A stretch of 22,189 nt of DNA, taken from contig JAWBON010000013.1 in assembly GCA_038826135.1 (NCBI GenBank), positions 1-22,189 of the forward strand. The letters run 5' to 3'. Made by a program: the position numbers and the translations under genes. The first letter of the stretch is position 1. Every line of letters starts with the position of its first letter. This DNA is from Candidatus Odinarchaeota archaeon. Lineage in GTDB: Archaea > Asgardarchaeota > Odinarchaeia > Odinarchaeales > Odinarchaeaceae. Under the pieces are notes generated by a model that worked only from the letters and a program-made list of their open reading frames with translations, was not told where the DNA came from and ran no database searches. This document shows positions 3 through 16,757 of the stretch, in pieces.

Positions 3-1703
3 GTAGCATCATGCTCTTTCTCTGGAGTTTTCGGCCCGTACACAGGAACTATATTTGAGCAGGCTATTTACACATATAGTTACAATAGTTCTAAACCGGT
101 AGTTTTTAAGAATAATATCACAGTCACCGTGATAAAAACATTTAATACAAGTTACGTGACTTACAATGTTGAGAACGGTAGCGCCGTCAGCTGGCGTGTG
201 AGATTTTACACCGATCTCAGCTTTAACAATGAGCCTAAAGGTAGCAATCCCACGTTTTATAGTAATTATTATTTTAACTTGACTTTTCCATTAGACTGGG
301 ATATTGGGAAAATAACTGATCCGGGAGGATACGACCATAGTGTTAATGAAACAAACTATATTTTGTATACGAATAGCACTGCTAAAATATTGTTTGTGAA
401 TGTTTCCGCTATAGGCTTGTACGGGCTTTATTCTGTGGAAGCTGCTTCACCTAACTATCTTAGAGAAATTTATCTTCAAGTGTATAAACCCGGAGTGGGC
501 TGGGTTAATGAAAGCTTTTTCAAGACAGGTGACTTGATAAGGTTTGCAGTTTCAATATCTGATGAAAACAGTATTCCACCAGCCGTTCCCGGTAACGCTT
601 CGATTACTGTGAAGGATCCGCGTGGAAACAACTGGCCGGGTGTGGGTTTGAATGTTTCAGTGATAGGGGGTTTAGCTGTTTCAGATAATTTAACAGCTCC
701 CAGCGGTATGCTGGTGGGCTCTTATCTTGTAGAATTTCACTGGTCTAACGGGTATGAAGCGGGGTGTTTGAAAACAGACAGGTTTGGTGTTCAAGGCCGA
801 GCTTTAGTCTCTGTGAAGCACCCTGTAGGGCAGGAGGCGTATATTCTCTCAGGCTCCAGCTTGCTGATAGAAATAGAATTATCGGATCCAGTTACAGGGC
901 AGCCGATAACGGATGCTATAGTTGAATACCGGTTCAGCTGGGATTCCGCGGGGGTTTGGCATCAGACACAGGCTATTAGTAACCGTTATATTGCAACCGC
1001 TGTGGTTCCTGAACCTCAGGTGGGGGAGCATACTATACTCATTCGTGTGAATCATACATTTTACACGTTAACCGCTCAGACTACTGTAAACATTAACGTC
1101 TGGCAGGAGTGGTATATCTACCTGCCTTGGGGTGGAAGAATCCTAGGCTGGTTGTTTATAGCATATGTTGCATTTGCGGGCTTGATAGCTGCCGGTGGAT
1201 TCACAGCTTGGAATTATTATTTCAAATATCCTAAAATGGTTAGGAAGATCAGAAGGATGATGAAAACTGTTAGAGGGGGTAGAGTGCCTAAACCCACTGG
1301 TGTAAGAGATAGAGCATCTATCTTAGAGAGGGTTAAAGCTGCAAGCCTGACCCCCGCTCTCAGTATAGAGTTACCTGAAGCGCCTACCCCATTGGAAGGG
1401 AAAGTTATTACACCTGTGGAGGAGCCGCAGCCGATTGAGGAGACGCCGTTGGAGCCTGTTGAAGAACGGGTTGAGGAGCATGTTGTAGAGGAGACGGCTG
1501 AGCCTGAAAAACGTGTTGAAATCGTTGAGGAAGCTTTGGAGCCTGAACTGAAATATTACGTTGAGGAGTTGAGTAAGCTGGAGGGGTTAACGGATAAAGA
1601 GATTCAGCAGATAATCCGTGAGATGAAGGAGCTGTCAGAGGAGGAGCGTGAAACCATGTTGGAAGCGTTGAAAGAGTCGTATTCTTCAAAAAAGGGGGGA
1701 TAA
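3..1703 (+). CDS. Large single-pass membrane-anchored surface (glyco)protein, 5'-truncated by the window edge; cytoplasmic basic segment, Pro/Glu-rich linker and C-terminal helical domain
   Basis: The frame is open from base 3 (VASCSFSGVFGPYTG...), so the GTG at 129 is internal. Beta-rich region with at least 11 N-X-S/T sequons, one hydrophobic span (ILGWLFIAYVAFAGLIAAGGFTAW, ~1138-1210), then a basic stretch KYPKMVRKIRRMMKTVR and an acidic tail. Confidence 0.8.
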   Translation, partial: VASCSFSGVFGPYTGTIFEQAIYTYSYNSSKPVVFKNNITVTVIKTFNTSYVTYNVENGSAVSWRVRFYTDLSFNNEPKGSNPTFYSNYYFNLTFPLDWDIGKITDPGGYDHSVNETNYILYTNSTAKILFVNVSAIGLYGLYSVEAASPNYLREIYLQVYKPGVGWVNESFFKTGDLIRFAVSISDENSIPPAVPGNASITVKDPRGNNWPGVGLNVSVIGGLAVSDNLTAPSGMLVGSYLVEFHWSNGYEAGCLKTDRFGVQGRALVSVKHPVGQEAYILSGSSLLIEIELSDPVTGQPITDAIVEYRFSWDSAGVWHQTQAISNRYIATAVVPEPQVGEHTILIRVNHTFYTLTAQTTVNINVWQEWYIYLPWGGRILGWLFIAYVAFAGLIAAGGFTAWNYYFKYPKMVRKIRRMMKTVRGGRVPKPTGVRDRASILERVKAASLTPALSIELPEAPTPLEGKVITPVEEPQPIEETPLEPVEERVEEHVVEETAEPEKRVEIVEEALEPELKYYVEELSKLEGLTDKEIQQIIREMKELSEEERETMLEALKESYSSKKGG

Positions 1704-1745
1704 GATAACGTGATGATATTTAAAAAAATTTGCAAGGTGAAATAG

Positions 1746-2837
1746 ATGCCTGAGGGTATAATAGTTGGGAAATGGGATGACGTGCAAGGCGTAGTGTTAC
1801 ACGCGAAGTATCCTGAAACAATTGAGATAGCTGACTATAATCTTATGAGAATATTTACAAGTCATGCTGTAGGGGAGGCGCAGGCGGGATTCCTCGCTTT
1901 AACTCTTGAAGAAGAGAAAATGAATGTTGCAAGCTATTTTACAGGGATAAGCCAGAAACCACAGTATTTTATTGCTCTGCTTCTCTCGAAAGATGAGGAT
2001 GCGAAATCATATGAAGAGAGTTTGTTAGATGTTTCAACCGAGCTGCTTGAAAAAGTGGATGCGCCGAATTTCACCGAGCTTTTAGCTGAAGCGTTTAGTA
2101 GACTTTCAAAAGCCATAGTGTTAAGTGACGAGCAGAGGCTTGCTCTAATATATAAGGATGAAATCCATAAGCTGGCTCATGAACGATTGATTAAAGGACC
2201 GGCTACTAGTAGTATGCTCGCCTCCTATATTCAGGAGAATGGTAATGTAAGCCGTGTGAACCCCGACTTGTTAGTTTCACCTTTAATAAGGTTAGGGCAT
2301 GTGACGCAGGGCTGGGTTCCAGGGTATCCTGAGCAGTTCATGTTTCTAATTAGAGATTTCTTCATCACCCGCGCTCCTTCCGAGAAAACGATTAAACTCA
2401 CTCTTAAAGGTGAACCTAACACTGAGATTGCTAGAAAATATTTGAAGACGGTTAAAGATTTCTTCACAGCTTATAATACTATGATCGATGAAAGCAGGGA
2501 TTTAGCTGAGATTCTGCTGAACCCTGAGTATTATGAGATAATAAAGCTGCTCAGGGAGAAACCTCGCCTTTTATCAGAGATTAACGCCTGCACTGGGCAG
2601 GAGAGACTTGGCTGTGAGGCTTCTGTCAGAAGGTTGGGGGAGCAGAATATTGTTGAAACCTATCAGATTGAGGTTGAAGGGGATATGTGGGTTCTACTTA
2701 AATCAGATATAGTTATCCACACATTCTTTCCAGAGTATCTTCTTGAAGTATTAAGATCTAAGCTAGCTTCAGGGGAGCTGTCCTCGGAGACAGCTATTAA
2801 ACACCTGGATCTTCTTCAACAAAACTATTCGCCTTGA
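1746..2837 (+). CDS. Longin/uDENN-like N-terminal domain fused to two winged-helix-like repeats (Asgard-type hypothetical protein)
   Basis: GGTGA SD before the ATG. N-terminus IIVGKWDDVQGVVLHAKYP has the longin/uDENN beta-hairpin pattern, followed by strands VASYF and YFIALLL. The C-terminal half shows an internal duplication. The ORF is solid; the fold call is by eye. Confidence 0.65.
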   Translation: MPEGIIVGKWDDVQGVVLHAKYPETIEIADYNLMRIFTSHAVGEAQAGFLALTLEEEKMNVASYFTGISQKPQYFIALLLSKDEDAKSYEESLLDVSTELLEKVDAPNFTELLAEAFSRLSKAIVLSDEQRLALIYKDEIHKLAHERLIKGPATSSMLASYIQENGNVSRVNPDLLVSPLIRLGHVTQGWVPGYPEQFMFLIRDFFITRAPSEKTIKLTLKGEPNTEIARKYLKTVKDFFTAYNTMIDESRDLAEILLNPEYYEIIKLLREKPRLLSEINACTGQERLGCEASVRRLGEQNIVETYQIEVEGDMWVLLKSDIVIHTFFPEYLLEVLRSKLASGELSSETAIKHLDLLQQNYSP

Positions 2838-3970
2838 ACCTGATTCTTATTATTAAATAAGTCTTTAGGTAGAAGGAACGCGGTGGCGAATCCTATCCAT
2901 ATAATTACCCCTAGTATTATGAATATTAGTGTTAGATCACCTAATATAAGAAGGGGTTCTAACACTGCTATTGTGATAAGTCTGCTCCCACCTAGGGCTA
3001 TACTTGTAAAAAATATTAGCGAGTTGTATTTATCTTTACTCATTGTTCTAGATAATAATCCAAAGAATGGCGCTGCTGTAAGAGCGATACCGAAAGATGA
3101 AGCCCAAGAGCCTAAAGTGAATATTTCAATAGATGTGGATATACCCATAATAATCATGGAAGCTCCTTCTATGAATAAAGCTGAGATCAGTATAATTCGA
3201 GCCCTGTTAAGGTCGAAGAAACGGCCAGCGGCTATGTAGCTTATAGATACAAGCAGGTTAACTATAGTCTGTATAATGCCCATGTTAAACTCGGTGCCTG
3301 CGAACCGGTTTAATAGAATAGGCTGATATATCCAGCTTGGAACGCTTATCACACCGTAGATTAACGTGAATAAGATTATTATTAAACCCAGCTTGTTATT
3401 GAAATATTTTTTTAAAAAGCTGAAGTCAACCTGTTTAAAATCCCAGTTAAAACGGCCTATTAAAAGAGCGGATAATAATGCGGGTATTAGCAGGAGAATC
3501 GCTGTGAAGAAGAGTTCACTGTATCCTATATATGAGATGATGAAACCGCCTATTATAGGACCGATCATGGAGGCTGTGTTCATTAAACCGTATAATATTC
3601 CAATTTTAAAGCCTCTATTCTCTTTTGGAATATATATTATAGCCAGATCCATAACAGACCAGTATAATCCTATAGCTAGACCGAATGTTAATGCCAGGAT
3701 ATGCCAGTTTAAATATGAGTAGAGTGAATAATAGAAGAGGCCTCTTACTAACAGTGAGAGAGCCATTAAAATATTCCCTTTATTCATGAAGAATAAGAGA
3801 CTCAGCACAGAGCTGAGTATGTTAAAAGCAAACATTACAATGTAAAATGCGCTAAGTTCAGCTACGTTAAGCCCTGTTTTTAAAAGAAATATAGGGAGGA
3901 AAATAGCGATAGAGCTGTGAGAGATACTTCTGAAAACCTCTGTTAAATATATTCTGTTTAATGTATTCAT
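2825..3970 (-). CDS. Major facilitator superfamily transporter, substrate unknown
   Basis: 381 aa with about 11-12 hydrophobic spans in two halves; motif-A-like AAGRFFDLNRAR in the C-terminal half. Confidence 0.85.
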   Translation of the reverse strand: MNTLNRIYLTEVFRSISHSSIAIFLPIFLLKTGLNVAELSAFYIVMFAFNILSSVLSLLFFMNKGNILMALSLLVRGLFYYSLYSYLNWHILALTFGLAIGLYWSVMDLAIIYIPKENRGFKIGILYGLMNTASMIGPIIGGFIISYIGYSELFFTAILLLIPALLSALLIGRFNWDFKQVDFSFLKKYFNNKLGLIIILFTLIYGVISVPSWIYQPILLNRFAGTEFNMGIIQTIVNLLVSISYIAAGRFFDLNRARIILISALFIEGASMIIMGISTSIEIFTLGSWASSFGIALTAAPFFGLLSRTMSKDKYNSLIFFTSIALGGSRLITIAVLEPLLILGDLTLIFIILGVIIWIGFATAFLLPKDLFNNKNQVQGE

Positions 3971-15906: not shown

Positions 15907-16161
15907 TTAGCTCTTAAACTTGAAGTCACTGGGCTCGTTTCCTTCTTCAATAATCACTGGTTTAGTGTTAAACAATTTAAACTGTCTTTTTATTGTGATC
16001 GCCGCAGTGCTTGCCCTATACAGATCACTAGGTGAGGCCCCCGCTCCCCTCCATATCCAAAGCTTACTTTCTTTTTCATCAACTATTATTGCAGTGGAGC
16101 CGCTGTCTGGCTTCCGCTCTATTTCATTTAACCCGCTCTGTGTTACTTGAAAGATTTTCAT
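15907..16161 (-). CDS. Single-domain gelsolin/villin-family protein (Asgard 1DGel-like actin regulator)
   Basis: Strong AGGAGG SD. The 84-aa protein has the gelsolin core AIIVDE...LWIWRGAGAS, a long helix and a C-terminal IEEGNEPSDF motif. Confidence 0.85.
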   Translation of the reverse strand: MKIFQVTQSGLNEIERKPDSGSTAIIVDEKESKLWIWRGAGASPSDLYRASTAAITIKRQFKLFNTKPVIIEEGNEPSDFKFKS

Positions 16162-16394: not shown

Positions 16395-16757
16395 TTGGGC
16401 GAATTTTATACCTATATCTCCGAGGCCCGGAAATATATTACTTTAAAAAAATATTATGAAGCCGCCTCAATATATGAAAAACTTGGCAAAACACTTTTTA
16501 AAACAGATGTTAAAACTGCTTTAAACTTGTTTAAACTTGCAATAAAATATTATCTTAAAAGTATAGTGGAATATGATAAAGCTAGAAAACTAGAAGAAAC
16601 AGCTCGATGCTACGAGTCTTTGGGGAAAATATATAAAAAATGGTTAAATGATACAAGTAGAGCGGCGGATTATTTTATAGCGGCTACAAAATATAGAATG
16701 AAGGCTTTAAAGACAAGTATAGCCTATAACAACGGTGAAAATACAAGTACAGTATAG
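16395..16757 (+). CDS. TPR-like helical-repeat protein resembling alpha-SNAP (NSF attachment protein)
   Basis: AAGGTGG SD plus TTG. Repeated helical hairpins: YYEAASIYEKLG, ALNLFKLAIKYY, TARCYESLGKIYKKWLNDTSRAADYF. Confidence 0.6.
   Translation: MGEFYTYISEARKYITLKKYYEAASIYEKLGKTLFKTDVKTALNLFKLAIKYYLKSIVEYDKARKLEETARCYESLGKIYKKWLNDTSRAADYFIAATKYRMKALKTSIAYNNGENTSTV

What the first reader, a model, noticed from the sequence alone, without database searches (positions are those of the whole stretch)
1100..2837. Surface receptor-like gene tightly linked to the longin-WH gene: a possible surface-to-GTPase signalling module
Seen: the genes are co-oriented with only 42 bp between them, the second has its own GGTGA SD, and the unit ends at the convergent MFS gene. 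Inference: a membrane-anchored protein with a cytoplasmic tail co-expressed with a longin-type regulator could recruit GTPase or trafficking machinery to the membrane. I know of no described system with this arrangement.
Basis: inference. Interest (0 to 1): 0.6.

Follow-up and report, generated by a model that had tools for sequence, protein, structure and literature searches.

The report
Asgard surface receptor with longin adaptor
An Odinarchaeon encodes a cell-surface glycoprotein right next to a cytoplasmic protein built like the eukaryotic GTPase regulators NPRL2/NPRL3, and because the two are fused into one protein in related archaea they very likely work together, linking the cell surface to the cell interior.

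Summary
ORF1 (3..1703, cut by the contig start) is a type-I single-pass glycoprotein. ORF2 (1746..2837) follows 42 nt later with GGTGA 5 nt before its ATG. A convergent MFS gene overlaps ORF2's end by 13 nt.

ORF2 folds (pLDDT 88.7) as a longin domain plus two winged helices. Its best structural matches are GATOR1 NPRL2/NPRL3, but it matches no Pfam family.

The linkage is not chance:
- The same gene order occurs in 21 of 30 best-hit loci across Asgard genomes.
- Uninterrupted 1,500-2,700-aa fused proteins (ectodomain, TM, linker, module) occur in at least 22 genomes.
- The basic juxtamembrane motif is shared by split and fused forms.
- The genome's second paralogue pairs with a second surface protein. 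That protein carries the only other copy of ORF1's tail motif.

Binding, co-transcription and GTPase activity remain untested, because the complex predictor was unavailable and no usable RNA was found.

I found no paper describing the surface link. Earlier notes of this scan reported the same module on other DNA (e1-2929080 and others).

Verdict: a real module, a new variant of a known kind, interest about 0.65.

The parts
3..1139 (+). ORF1 ectodomain. This is the C-terminal 379 residues of about 680; the N-terminal part and the signal peptide lie beyond the contig start.
   Evidence: The frame is open from the window start. All 13 N-x-S/T sequons lie at visible residues 28-350, before the TM helix. 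The full-length orthologue L031:12354-14942 has 862 aa, an N-terminal hydrophobic signal or anchor, and 22 sequons. There is no Pfam or PDB sequence match.
1140..1196 (+). ORF1 transmembrane helix (visible residues 380-398)
   Evidence: My own Kyte-Doolittle scan (19-residue window, score 2.12) finds this as the only such segment in the visible protein.
1197..1328 (+). ORF1 basic juxtamembrane motif (F-K-Y-P-x-x-V-R-K-I-R ... K-P ... R-D-R)
   Evidence: The first 40 tail residues hold 12 K/R and 1 D/E. The motif aligns with the tails of upstream surface proteins of families f2, f19, f21 and f22; P10, R14 and K30 are invariant in 15 of 15 rows of A2. The same type of motif follows the TM helix in the fused proteins.
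1329..1538 (+). ORF1 acidic, proline-rich, low-complexity linker of the tail
   Evidence: Composition is seen in the translation. The segment is poorly conserved among Odin orthologues.
1539..1694 (+). ORF1 C-terminal tail motif (visible residues 513-564). The helical character is inferred from the sequence pattern, not modelled.
   Evidence: The motif is conserved in Odin families f1 and f2. An HMM of it, run over all G000 ORFs of 50 aa or more, finds only ORF1 (E 7e-26) and C26_3_4052 (E 1e-4, two copies). C26_3_4052 is the surface protein paired with the second ORF2 paralogue.
1704..1745 (+). 42-nt intergenic spacer with the Shine-Dalgarno-like GGTGA at 1736-1740; an A/T run (TTTAAAAAAATT) lies at 1719-1730
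   Evidence: Orthologous gaps are 0-43 nt, and each has GGTG or GGAGG 5-8 nt before the start codon.
1746..2060 (+). ORF2 longin domain (residues 1-105, beta-beta-alpha-beta-beta-beta-alpha)
   Evidence: AF2 model. VIA Z 12.4 (rmsd 2.6, 121 aligned) to GATOR1 chain 9o5d_D, and Z 12.1 to the lokiarchaeal Roadblock-Longin protein 8yqg_A. The search that does not use Foldseek gives Z 12.0 to 8fw5_B. This is the most conserved part of the protein (mean column identity 0.77). W10, G15, P23, H40, G48, S63 and G67 are invariant in 108 of 108 sequences.
2061..2834 (+). ORF2 connecting helix (106-127), winged helix 1 (128-212), helical hairpin (213-249), winged helix 2 (250-330) and two C-terminal helices (331-363)
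   Evidence: The PDB profile search hits winged-helix proteins at residues 251-311 (E 5e-4). VIA gives Z about 10 for residues 244-324 against ArsR/SmtB-type winged helices. Net charge is 0 for wH1 and -6 for wH2.
2825..3970 (-). Convergent MFS transporter gene that bounds the unit (context, not shown to be part of the module)
   Evidence: PF07690 at E 6.7e-12. It overlaps ORF2 by 13 nt. The same convergent polytopic gene is present in 7 of 7 Odin loci L001-L007.

Best explanation
ORF1 and ORF2 are the two halves of a split single-pass surface receptor.

ORF1 is a type-I, heavily N-glycosylatable surface protein. Its cytoplasmic tail has a conserved basic juxtamembrane segment and, in Odinarchaeia, a C-terminal motif. 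This tail most likely docks ORF2 at the inner face of the membrane.

ORF2 is an acidic cytoplasmic adaptor with the architecture of NPRL2/NPRL3: a longin domain followed by tandem winged helices. Its longin domain is the most conserved part and most likely binds or regulates a small Arf/Ras-like GTPase. Candidates in this genome are C57:1947-2846 and C2:3512-4477. In this way events at the cell surface would be coupled to a GTPase switch.

Shown: the gene order, its conservation, natural fusions of the two proteins, the folds, and the shared tail motifs.
Inferred: co-transcription, direct tail-to-adaptor binding (about 0.65), action on a GTPase (about 0.45), and the direction of information flow.
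For: (1) Operon-like layout. The gap is 42 nt with GGTGA before the ATG. Orthologous gaps are 0-43 nt, each with an SD-like element.

(2) Conserved order. A co-oriented, sequon-rich, single-TM ORF lies directly upstream in 21 of the 30 best-hit loci (3 not assessable, 6 without it). In a maximum-likelihood tree of 39 family members that I chose, a clade with support 92/87 unites 14 rows: 6 Odin and 8 from families f19, f21 and f22. All 14 have this upstream gene.

(3) Fusion. In 9 of the best 150 representative clusters the module sits C-terminal to an ectodomain and a TM helix (P0048, P0052, P0057, P0059, P0063, P0067, P0074, P0076; P0121 is partial). Among the listed rows, uninterrupted frames of 1,571-2,698 aa occur in 22 genomes. 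About 20 further rows are collinear but interrupted by exactly one stop codon.

(4) Homologous tails. The juxtamembrane motif is shared by Odin, f19, f21, f22 and the fused forms.

(5) A second pair in the same lineage. The other full-length paralogue (G000 C95; G303 L031:3038-4123) is followed by a 140-aa gene and then a surface protein of about 1,552 aa. That protein's tail holds the only other copies of ORF1's C-terminal motif in the genome. The same three-gene unit is conserved in Atabeyarchaeia.

(6) Fold. The longin domain is closest to NPRL2 and NPRL3, a lokiarchaeal longin, Lst4, FNIP2 and FLCN.

(7) GTPase link in sister clades. The next gene overlaps the family member and encodes an Arf/Ras-like GTPase with an N-terminal extension in f16 and f15 (PF00025, E 2e-23 and 9e-24). 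A same-strand GTPase lies within 3 kb downstream in 58 of 69 Thor-type loci, and in 51 of the 52 that have at least 3 kb of downstream sequence. Divergent GTPase genes lie beside the Atabey members, the f19 surface gene and two tandem fused receptor genes of G180. G000 holds two full-length homologues of this GTPase type (E 5e-85 and 5e-77).
Against: No direct evidence of binding, co-transcription or GTPase regulation was obtained.

No GTPase gene lies within 7-12 kb of the pair in the three long Odin loci (L031, L032, L040). None lies on contigs C13, C95 or C26 of G000.

The family matches no Pfam NPR2 or NPR3 model.

The proline of the 'GP' motif of GAP-type longins is absent; position 16 is A, T, L or V in 106 of 108 sequences. 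I could not place a conserved arginine finger.

Thor-type and Atabey-type members lack the upstream surface gene, so the surface link belongs to some clades and not to the whole family.

Genomes of one lineage are kin, so the locus counts overstate independent support. The TM helices come from a simple hydropathy scan.
Confidence: 0.6

Rival explanations
1. ORF2 is a dedicated biogenesis, sorting or anchoring adaptor for its surface protein. It would target, retain or tether the giant glycoprotein, for example to a scaffold. It would not relay a signal, and it might not regulate a GTPase at all.
For: Each full-length paralogue pairs with one particular surface protein. Fusion into a single polypeptide fits a constitutive structural role as well as it fits signalling. 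No GTPase gene is near the Odin pairs. The operon-linked GTPase of f16 also scores on the SRP-receptor-beta model (PF09439, 25.8 bits against a cut-off of 25), which hints at a targeting-type GTPase. Longin domains such as those of the adaptor sigma subunits and the SNAREs, which also appear in the fold list at Z 9-10, are cargo and coat adaptors.
Against: The invariant residues cluster in the longin domain (W10, G15, P23, H40, G48, S63, G67). The best structural matches are GTPase regulators. Recurrent GTPase neighbours in five lineages are hard to explain by a purely structural role. This rival overlaps the main reading, since an adaptor could do both.
Confidence: 0.22
2. ORF2 is a winged-helix transcription factor that the receptor holds at, or releases from, the membrane. 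This would be a one-step transmembrane gene switch of the ToxR/CadC kind.
For: ORF2 has two winged-helix domains. Winged helix 2 superposes on ArsR/SmtB/MarR repressors at Z 9-10. The profile hit to PH1932 has E 5e-4. Weak MarR, TrmB and ArsR Pfam hits occur in 2-5 of the 16 family members. One homologue is named 'winged helix-turn-helix domain-containing protein' by NCBI. A protein with a TrmB-type winged helix is a neighbour in L035 and L036.
Against: The protein is acidic (pI 4.97). Net charge is 0 for wH1 and -6 for wH2. The helices at the recognition positions are hydrophobic or acidic and vary among homologues. Conservation peaks in the longin domain, not in the winged helices. The full-length structural matches are NPRL2 and NPRL3, whose winged helices, from my recollection of the GATOR1 literature, serve protein contacts. 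No Pfam DNA-binding model reaches its cut-off.
Confidence: 0.08
3. The two genes are neighbours without a shared function, that is, chance adjacency or a mere co-transcribed passenger.
For: No experiment links them. The neighbouring genes in the window are unrelated housekeeping genes. Some family clades have other neighbours.
Against: Adjacency is kept between lineages whose proteins are only about 30-50% identical. Natural fusions occur in at least 22 genomes. The tail motifs are shared. A second, independently arranged pair exists.
Confidence: 0.03

Closest known systems
NPRL2 / NPRL3 (yeast Npr2/Npr3), subunits of GATOR1/SEACIT, the GAP complex for RagA/B
   Same: Both have an N-terminal longin domain followed by winged-helix units in a protein of about 360-400 aa. 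These are the best structural matches by three searches. Foldseek gives full-length alignments at E 1e-4 to 1e-3. VIA gives Z 12.4 (rmsd 2.6, 121 aligned). The search that does not use Foldseek gives Z 12.0. Like NPRL2 and NPRL3, the family comes as paralogous pairs in one genome.
   Different: No sequence-level relation was detected: no NPRL chain appears among the 31 PDB profile hits at E up to 10, and there is no Pfam NPR2 or NPR3 hit. No Iml1/DEPDC5 match was found in the genome, although the control genomes were silent too. The GP proline is absent and no arginine finger was identified. The protein is encoded beside, or fused to, a single-pass surface protein, which is not known for GATOR1.
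'NPRL2-like longin domain' proteins of Asgard archaea (asCOG annotation; Liu et al. preprint 10.1101/2020.10.19.343400, passages read; also listed for Lokiarchaeum ossiferum in PMC9834061, passage read)
   Same: Both are Asgard proteins with an NPRL2-type longin domain and a small C-terminal domain, described as abundant and as part of varied fusions. ORF2 very probably belongs to this loosely defined set.
   Different: [quoted passage not shown] They do not mention surface proteins, the basic tail motif or GTPase operons. I could not see Figure 5c or the supplements (bioRxiv supplements are closed), so such architectures may be drawn there. Membership in a given asCOG cannot be tested with the tools at hand.
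FLCN-FNIP and C9orf72-SMCR8 (longin plus DENN GAP complexes)
   Same: The longin fold matches: FNIP2 Z 10.0-10.8, FLCN Z 10.0, C9orf72 Z 9.1-9.2. ORF2 has invariant W10 and G15 and near-invariant D11. This is the same W-D ... G spacing as W33-D34 ... G38 of human C9orf72, as given in PMC12290439 (section read).
   Different: The C-terminal half is two winged helices, not a DENN domain. The residue after the glycine is not proline.
Lokiarchaeal Roadblock-Longin protein (PDB 8yqg)
   Same: It is an Asgard longin domain with nearly the same structural score as NPRL2 (Z 12.1, rmsd 3.1, 125 aligned; Z 11.8).
   Different: Its partner domain is Roadblock and lies N-terminal, not tandem winged helices. 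No link to a surface protein is known to me; I saw only the PDB title.
SRP receptor: the SRX (longin-like) domain of SR-alpha bound to the membrane-anchored Arf-like GTPase SR-beta (recalled, not from a call)
   Same: It is a longin-type domain working with an Arf-like GTPase at a membrane through a transmembrane partner. The f16 operon GTPase scores just above the Pfam SRPRB cut-off.
   Different: Here the membrane anchor is a giant surface glycoprotein and not the GTPase. ORF2 has no SRP-type GTPase domain. The resemblance is functional at most and was not tested.

Membership tests
NPRL2/NPRL3 (GATOR1) | N-terminal longin fold | tested here: met
   AF2 model with pLDDT 88.7. VIA Z 12.4, 11.8 and 12.0 to GATOR1 chains 9o5d_D, 7t3b_B and 8fw5_B over residues 1-126.
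NPRL2/NPRL3 (GATOR1) | C-terminal winged-helix units after the longin domain | tested here: met
   Two winged helices at residues 128-212 and 250-330. Foldseek aligns 338-455 columns, which is the full length, to GATOR1 chains. SEA-complex chain 8adl_S aligns over residues 1-309.
NPRL2/NPRL3 (GATOR1) | Sequence membership (Pfam NPR2 PF06218 or NPR3) | tested here: not met
   ORF2 has no such hit at E up to 1, and neither does any of the 16 family members. PF06218 finds nothing in G000. No NPRL chain appears among the PDB profile hits at E up to 10.
NPRL2/NPRL3 (GATOR1) | Catalytic arginine finger on the longin domain | tested here: inconclusive
   The only well-conserved arginine of the longin domain is R35 (95 of 108), and it lies in helix 1. 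Without coordinates I could not superpose it on the known finger.
NPRL2/NPRL3 (GATOR1) | Partner DEPDC5/Iml1 and a Rag GTPase substrate | tested here: inconclusive
   PF12257 (IML1) gives 0 matches in G000, but it rang in no control genome either. Gtr1/RagA-model matches exist in G000 (10 places, best E 4e-9). Activity is not testable here.
GAP-type longins (FLCN, NPRL2, SMCR8, C9orf72), as defined in PMC12290439 | GP motif before strand 2 | tested here: not met
   G15 is invariant (108 of 108), but position 16 is A, T, L or V in 106 of 108 sequences. The motif definition was read.
GAP-type longins (C9orf72 type) | W-D motif four residues before that glycine | tested here: met
   W10 in 108 of 108 and D11 in 94 of 108 sequences. 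The spacing from W to G is 5, as for W33 to G38 of C9orf72. This is a sequence-pattern match only; no structural superposition was made.
Asgard 'NPRL2-like longin' asCOGs | Assignment by the asCOG profiles | not testable with these tools
   No asCOG library is on hand, and the supplements of the preprint are closed.
Type-I single-pass surface glycoprotein (ORF1) | N-terminal signal, one TM helix, positive-inside tail, sequons only outside | tested here: met
   One TM helix at visible residues 380-398. All 13 sequons lie before it. The first 40 tail residues hold 12 K/R and 1 D/E. The signal or anchor is seen only in the full-length orthologue, because the window copy is cut. Glycosylation itself is not testable here.
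Winged-helix transcription factors (ArsR/MarR/TrmB) | Reaches a family model; basic, conserved recognition helix | tested here: not met
   No model reaches its cut-off in ORF2. Some of the 16 members show weak hits. wH2 has net charge -6, and its recognition-position helix varies among homologues. DNA binding itself was not tested.
Operon (one transcript) | Short gap with an SD-like element; a transcript spanning the junction | tested here: inconclusive
   The gap and SD-like element are present and conserved. No read or contig bridges 1704-1745, and the runs are probably DNA.

The most novel reading that the evidence does not exclude
Asgard archaea possess a widespread, ancient transmembrane device. 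Giant surface glycoproteins carry, or dock through a conserved basic tail, a GATOR1-like longin and winged-helix module that switches Arf/Rag-like GTPases. This would be a prokaryotic forerunner of receptor- or cargo-coupled small-GTPase regulation at membranes, and the Odin pair in this window is its minimal split form.
Probability: 0.3. Interest if true: 0.85.

Novelty: new variant of a known kind. Interest (0 to 1): 0.65.

Why it matters
Asgard genomes hold many longin and Roadblock proteins and small GTPases, and it is not known which work together. One paper I read notes that their genes are rarely in operons, which makes it hard to match GTPases to regulators (PMC10933270, passage).

This module gives one such family a concrete membrane partner. 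In sister clades it also gives a specific GTPase partner. That turns a vague list of 'eukaryote-like parts' into testable pairs:
- the tail with the adaptor;
- the adaptor with the two Arf-like GTPases that have an N-terminal extension.

If the coupling is real, a GATOR1-type regulator was already tied to membrane proteins before eukaryotes arose. That bears on how membrane signalling and trafficking began. The Odin version is small and comes from a hot-spring organism, which may suit biochemistry.

Tried and rejected
- Complex prediction on the ORF1 tail (A2) with ORF2 (A1) was not available, so nothing was folded.
The retry came after 20 other calls, as the message allowed.

Expression:
- No RNA holder was listed.
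- Laying three runs gave only 151-274-nt contigs at low depth from runs marked 'probably DNA'. None bridges 1704-1745; one piece ends at 1695 and another starts at 1737. This says nothing on co-transcription.

Signals in the gap:
- The sigma-70 promoter and hairpin-terminator scan does not apply to archaea, and I ignored it.
- I considered the A/T run at 1719-1730 as an internal TATA box. It would give a near-leaderless mRNA without the SD, and its sequence is not kept in other Odin orthologues. It is not excluded.
- I considered stop-codon read-through, because ORF1 and ORF2 share a frame in the window. Two in-frame stops separate them, and other Odin orthologues are out of frame, so I dropped it for Odin.

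ORF1 ectodomain:
- No Pfam match and no PDB sequence match.
- The ESM Atlas lead to Ig-like Big_1 proteins scores only 0.77, below a trustworthy level.
- The word-based homologue search with the ORF1 C-terminus found only 4 proteins, all from Odinarchaeia. More distant tails were recognised only by alignment.

Literature:
- Seven searches found no paper linking these longin proteins to surface proteins.
- The search was too broad to be useful.


Full report
**Setting.** The window is the first 22,189 bases of contig C13 of a 1.26-Mb assembly in 105 contigs. The closest homologues of its proteins are from Odinarchaeia. The genes around the finding are housekeeping genes: an MFS transporter, the RFC large subunit, TFB, GrpE-DnaK-DnaJ, topoisomerase VI and others. 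No small GTPase gene lies in the window.

**Observation.**
- ORF1 occupies 3..1703 on the + strand and is open at its 5' end, because the contig starts there. Its stop is TAA at 1701-1703.
- ORF2 starts at ATG 1746 and ends at 2837 (363 aa).
- The spacer is 42 nt. GGTGA lies at 1736-1740, 5 nt before the ATG.
- An in-frame TAG at 1743-1745 fixes the start of ORF2.
- The convergent MFS gene (2825..3970, - strand) overlaps ORF2's end by 13 nt.

The only correction is that ORF1 is much longer than the stated coordinates suggest.

**ORF1.**
- A hydropathy scan of my own (Kyte-Doolittle, 19-residue window) finds one transmembrane helix at visible residues 380-398 (nt 1140-1196).
- All 13 N-x-S/T sequons lie before this helix. 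The first 40 residues after it hold 12 K/R and 1 D/E. The large part is therefore outside the cell, and a 168-residue tail is inside.
- In a complete genome of the same genus the orthologue has 862 aa, an N-terminal hydrophobic signal or anchor, and 22 sequons.
- No Pfam family and no PDB sequence matches the ectodomain. An ESM Atlas lead to Ig-like proteins is too weak to use.

**ORF2.**
- It has no Pfam match.
- With an alignment of 16 homologues, AlphaFold2 gives a confident model (pLDDT 88.7, pTM 0.73). The model has a beta-beta-alpha-beta-beta-beta-alpha domain (residues 1-105), a helix, a winged helix (128-212), a helical hairpin, a second winged helix (250-330) and two final helices.
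- Foldseek ranks GATOR1 and SEA-complex chains first, with alignments over the whole length (E 1e-4 to 1e-3).
- VIA-align gives Z 12.4 (rmsd 2.6, 121 residues) for the longin domain against a GATOR1 chain, Z 12.1 against the longin domain of a lokiarchaeal Roadblock-Longin protein, and about Z 10-11 for Lst4, FNIP2, VAMP7 and DENND1B. It gives about Z 10 for winged helix 2 against ArsR/SmtB repressors.
- The search that does not rely on Foldseek gives the same order (Z 12.0 for 8fw5_B).
The nearest known architecture is NPRL2/NPRL3.
- At the sequence level there is no link. No NPRL chain appears among the PDB profile hits. No NPR2 or NPR3 Pfam hit is found in any of the 16 members or in the genome.

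**The family.**
- A profile of the 16 homologues finds matches in 339 of 400 genomes of the phylum, and in 80 of the 90 high-quality ones. There are usually several per genome.
- It also finds 480 representative clusters at E up to 1e-3 among 1.84 billion proteins.
- G000 has two full-length members, ORF2 and C95:1313-2395, plus shorter longin-only relatives.
- Conservation is highest in the longin domain. W10, G15, P23, H40, G48, S63 and G67 are invariant in 108 of 108 distinct sequences taken from the loci, although about 65 of these are from one Thor-type clade.
- W10-D11 ... G15 has the same spacing as the W33-D34 ... G38 motif reported for C9orf72 (section read). The proline of the 'GP' motif is not present.

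**Is the pairing real? Five lines of evidence say yes.**

*1. Synteny.*
- Among the 30 best-hit loci (one per genome, the window's own included), 21 have a co-oriented, sequon-rich ORF directly upstream with a single TM helix near its end. Three loci end too soon to tell, and 6 lack it.
- The gaps are 12-43 nt in Odin families f1 and f2.
- In most f22 loci the stop codon abuts the ATG. All have an SD-like element.
- In a tree of 39 members that I selected, a clade with support 92/87 holds the 6 Odin rows and 8 rows from f19, f21 and f22. All 14 have the upstream gene.

*2. Fusion.*
- In 9 of the best 150 representative clusters the module sits at the C-terminus of proteins of up to 2,548 aa. 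Their layout is a sequon-rich ectodomain, one TM helix, a linker of about 85 residues, then the module.
- A search with one such protein finds uninterrupted frames of 1,571-2,698 aa in 22 genomes among the listed rows, often as tandem pairs.
- About 20 further rows are collinear with the fused form but broken by exactly one stop codon (150 of 245 matches were listed).
- In the tree, five fused forms and one form split by a single stop share a clade with 100/100 support.

*3. Homologous tails.*
- The segment just after the TM helix (F/W-K/R-Y/F-P-x-x-V/I-R-K/R ..., then K-P ... R-D/E) aligns between ORF1 and the upstream proteins of f2, f19, f21 and f22, with three invariant positions in 15 of 15 rows.
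- The fused proteins and the Atabey surface proteins carry a related K-I-P-x-F-V-K-K form.
- ORF1 also matches the ectodomain of the f19 surface protein (BLASTP E 4e-13) and the tail from locus L013, an f22 genome (E 6e-6).

*4. A second pair.*
- In the complete relative, the other full-length paralogue is followed on the same strand by a 140-aa gene and a surface protein of about 1,552 aa. That protein has a signal, one TM helix and a 208-residue tail.
- In G000 this unit is broken over contigs C95 and C26.

*5. An exclusive tail motif.*
- An HMM of ORF1's C-terminal tail motif, searched over all G000 ORFs of 50 aa or more, finds only ORF1 itself and the second surface protein (E 1e-4, two copies). 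The next hit has E 0.08.
- The three-gene arrangement (adaptor, small protein, surface protein) recurs in Atabeyarchaeia. The small protein there is 33-37% identical to the Odin one (E about 1e-21).

**The GTPase question.** The Odin loci show no GTPase gene within 7-12 kb. Other clades of the family do.
- In f16 and f15 the next gene overlaps the family member by 10 and 25 nt. It encodes an extension of about 135 residues plus an Arf/Ras-type GTPase.
- In Thor-type loci a same-strand GTPase lies within 3 kb downstream in 58 of 69 loci, and in 51 of the 52 that have enough sequence. The upstream gene there is thymidylate kinase, not a surface protein, in the three loci I scanned.
- In Atabeyarchaeia a GTPase gene lies divergently 182-310 bp upstream.
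- In f19 a Roadblock-Ras fusion lies divergently 269 bp from the surface gene.
- In G180 two tandem fused receptor genes lie 197 bp from a divergent 698-aa protein with two GTPase domains and a Roadblock/LAMTOR3-like region.
- G000 has about 16 Ras-superfamily genes. Two are full-length homologues of the operon-linked type: C57:1947-2846 (E 5e-85) and C2:3512-4477 (E 5e-77).

These are associations among related genomes, not independent trials, and none of them shows activity.

**Mechanism.**
- I commit to this reading: ORF1's tail docks ORF2 at the membrane, and ORF2's longin domain engages an Arf-like GTPase.
- The first step rests on fusion and synteny and is likely. The second rests on fold and on neighbours in other clades, and is roughly an even bet.
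- A membrane-held transcription factor is unlikely. The protein is acidic (pI 4.97), its winged helices carry no net positive charge, and the recognition-position helices vary among homologues.

**What is known.**
- The Liu et al. preprint describes 'NPRL2-like' longin proteins in Asgard archaea and their fusions to two-component domains (passages read).
- The Lokiarchaeum ossiferum paper lists 'NPRL2-like longin domain' among enriched ESPs and stresses numerous complex surface proteins (passages read).
- A 2025 paper links Asgard longins to GAP-type longins through the GP motif and the arginine finger (passages and one section read).
- Tran et al. note that GTPase genes in MK-D1 are generally not in operons with longin or Roadblock genes (passage read).
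- None of the passages I saw, and none of seven searches, links this family to surface proteins. Figure 5c and the supplements of the preprint were not visible to me and may bear on this.
- After I had reached this reading, look-ups in this scan's own notes showed that the same module had been reported by earlier agents on other genomes (an Odinarchaeum, Thorarchaeota, Loki-type and Heimdall-type archaea). They agree with my reading but are not independent evidence.

**Limits.**
- Binding could not be predicted.
- The fused linker could not be folded.
- No transcript data were usable.

Noticed in passing
window 2825-3970 (- strand); L001-L007: The convergent MFS-type permease gene overlaps ORF2's 3' end by 13 nt. 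A convergent polytopic membrane gene sits at the same place in 7 of 7 Odin loci from two genera. This is a curious neighbour for a protein built like the 'nitrogen permease regulators'. No functional link was tested.
   Followed up: partly
L014, L015 and other f22 loci; rows with '1 TAA': In many f22 genomes the surface gene and the adaptor gene are in the same reading frame and separated only by one TAA directly followed by ATG. This could mean termination-reinitiation coupling, a recent fission or fusion, or occasional read-through that yields both a split and a fused product.
   Followed up: no
G000 C17:4234-10404 (- strand): A longin-only relative of ORF2 (154 aa, E 2.6e-11) lies in a same-strand run with a 249-aa ORF, a 365-aa ORF with one TM helix, and a 1,298-aa protein that has 29 sequons and many predicted TM helices. 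This may be another surface-linked longin unit.
   Followed up: no
L035:5701-7656 (-); L036:4855-6759 (+): A 634-651-aa protein with an N-terminal TrmB-type winged helix (E 3e-6 and 2e-8) and a long region that looks like a coiled coil neighbours the surface-adaptor pair in two distant families.
   Followed up: no
proteins P0096, P0104, P0109, P0113; P0090, P0103; P0021, P0024, P0026: The family has other architectures. In some, the winged-helix half follows repeated N-terminal units of about 130 residues in place of the longin domain. In others, the full module is followed by a 650-aa region with TPR-like repeats, or by long charged tails that look like coiled coils.
   Followed up: no
window 1719-1730: An A/T run (TTTAAAAAAATT) inside the 42-nt spacer could be an archaeal TATA box for a separate, nearly leaderless ORF2 transcript. 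The sequence is not conserved in other Odin orthologues.
   Followed up: partly
window 16395-16757 (+) and 15907-16161: A 120-aa ORF gives a sub-threshold match to the SNAP (soluble NSF attachment protein) model (E 4e-5, 23.6 bits against a cut-off of 25).
   Followed up: no
L042-L044 against G298-G300: Records labelled 'Hodarchaeota' or 'Promethearchaeota' hold ORF2 orthologues in the same coordinate ranges as, and clustering with, loci of genomes that the genome collection places in the window's own order (family f2). The public labels may therefore be misleading.
   Followed up: no
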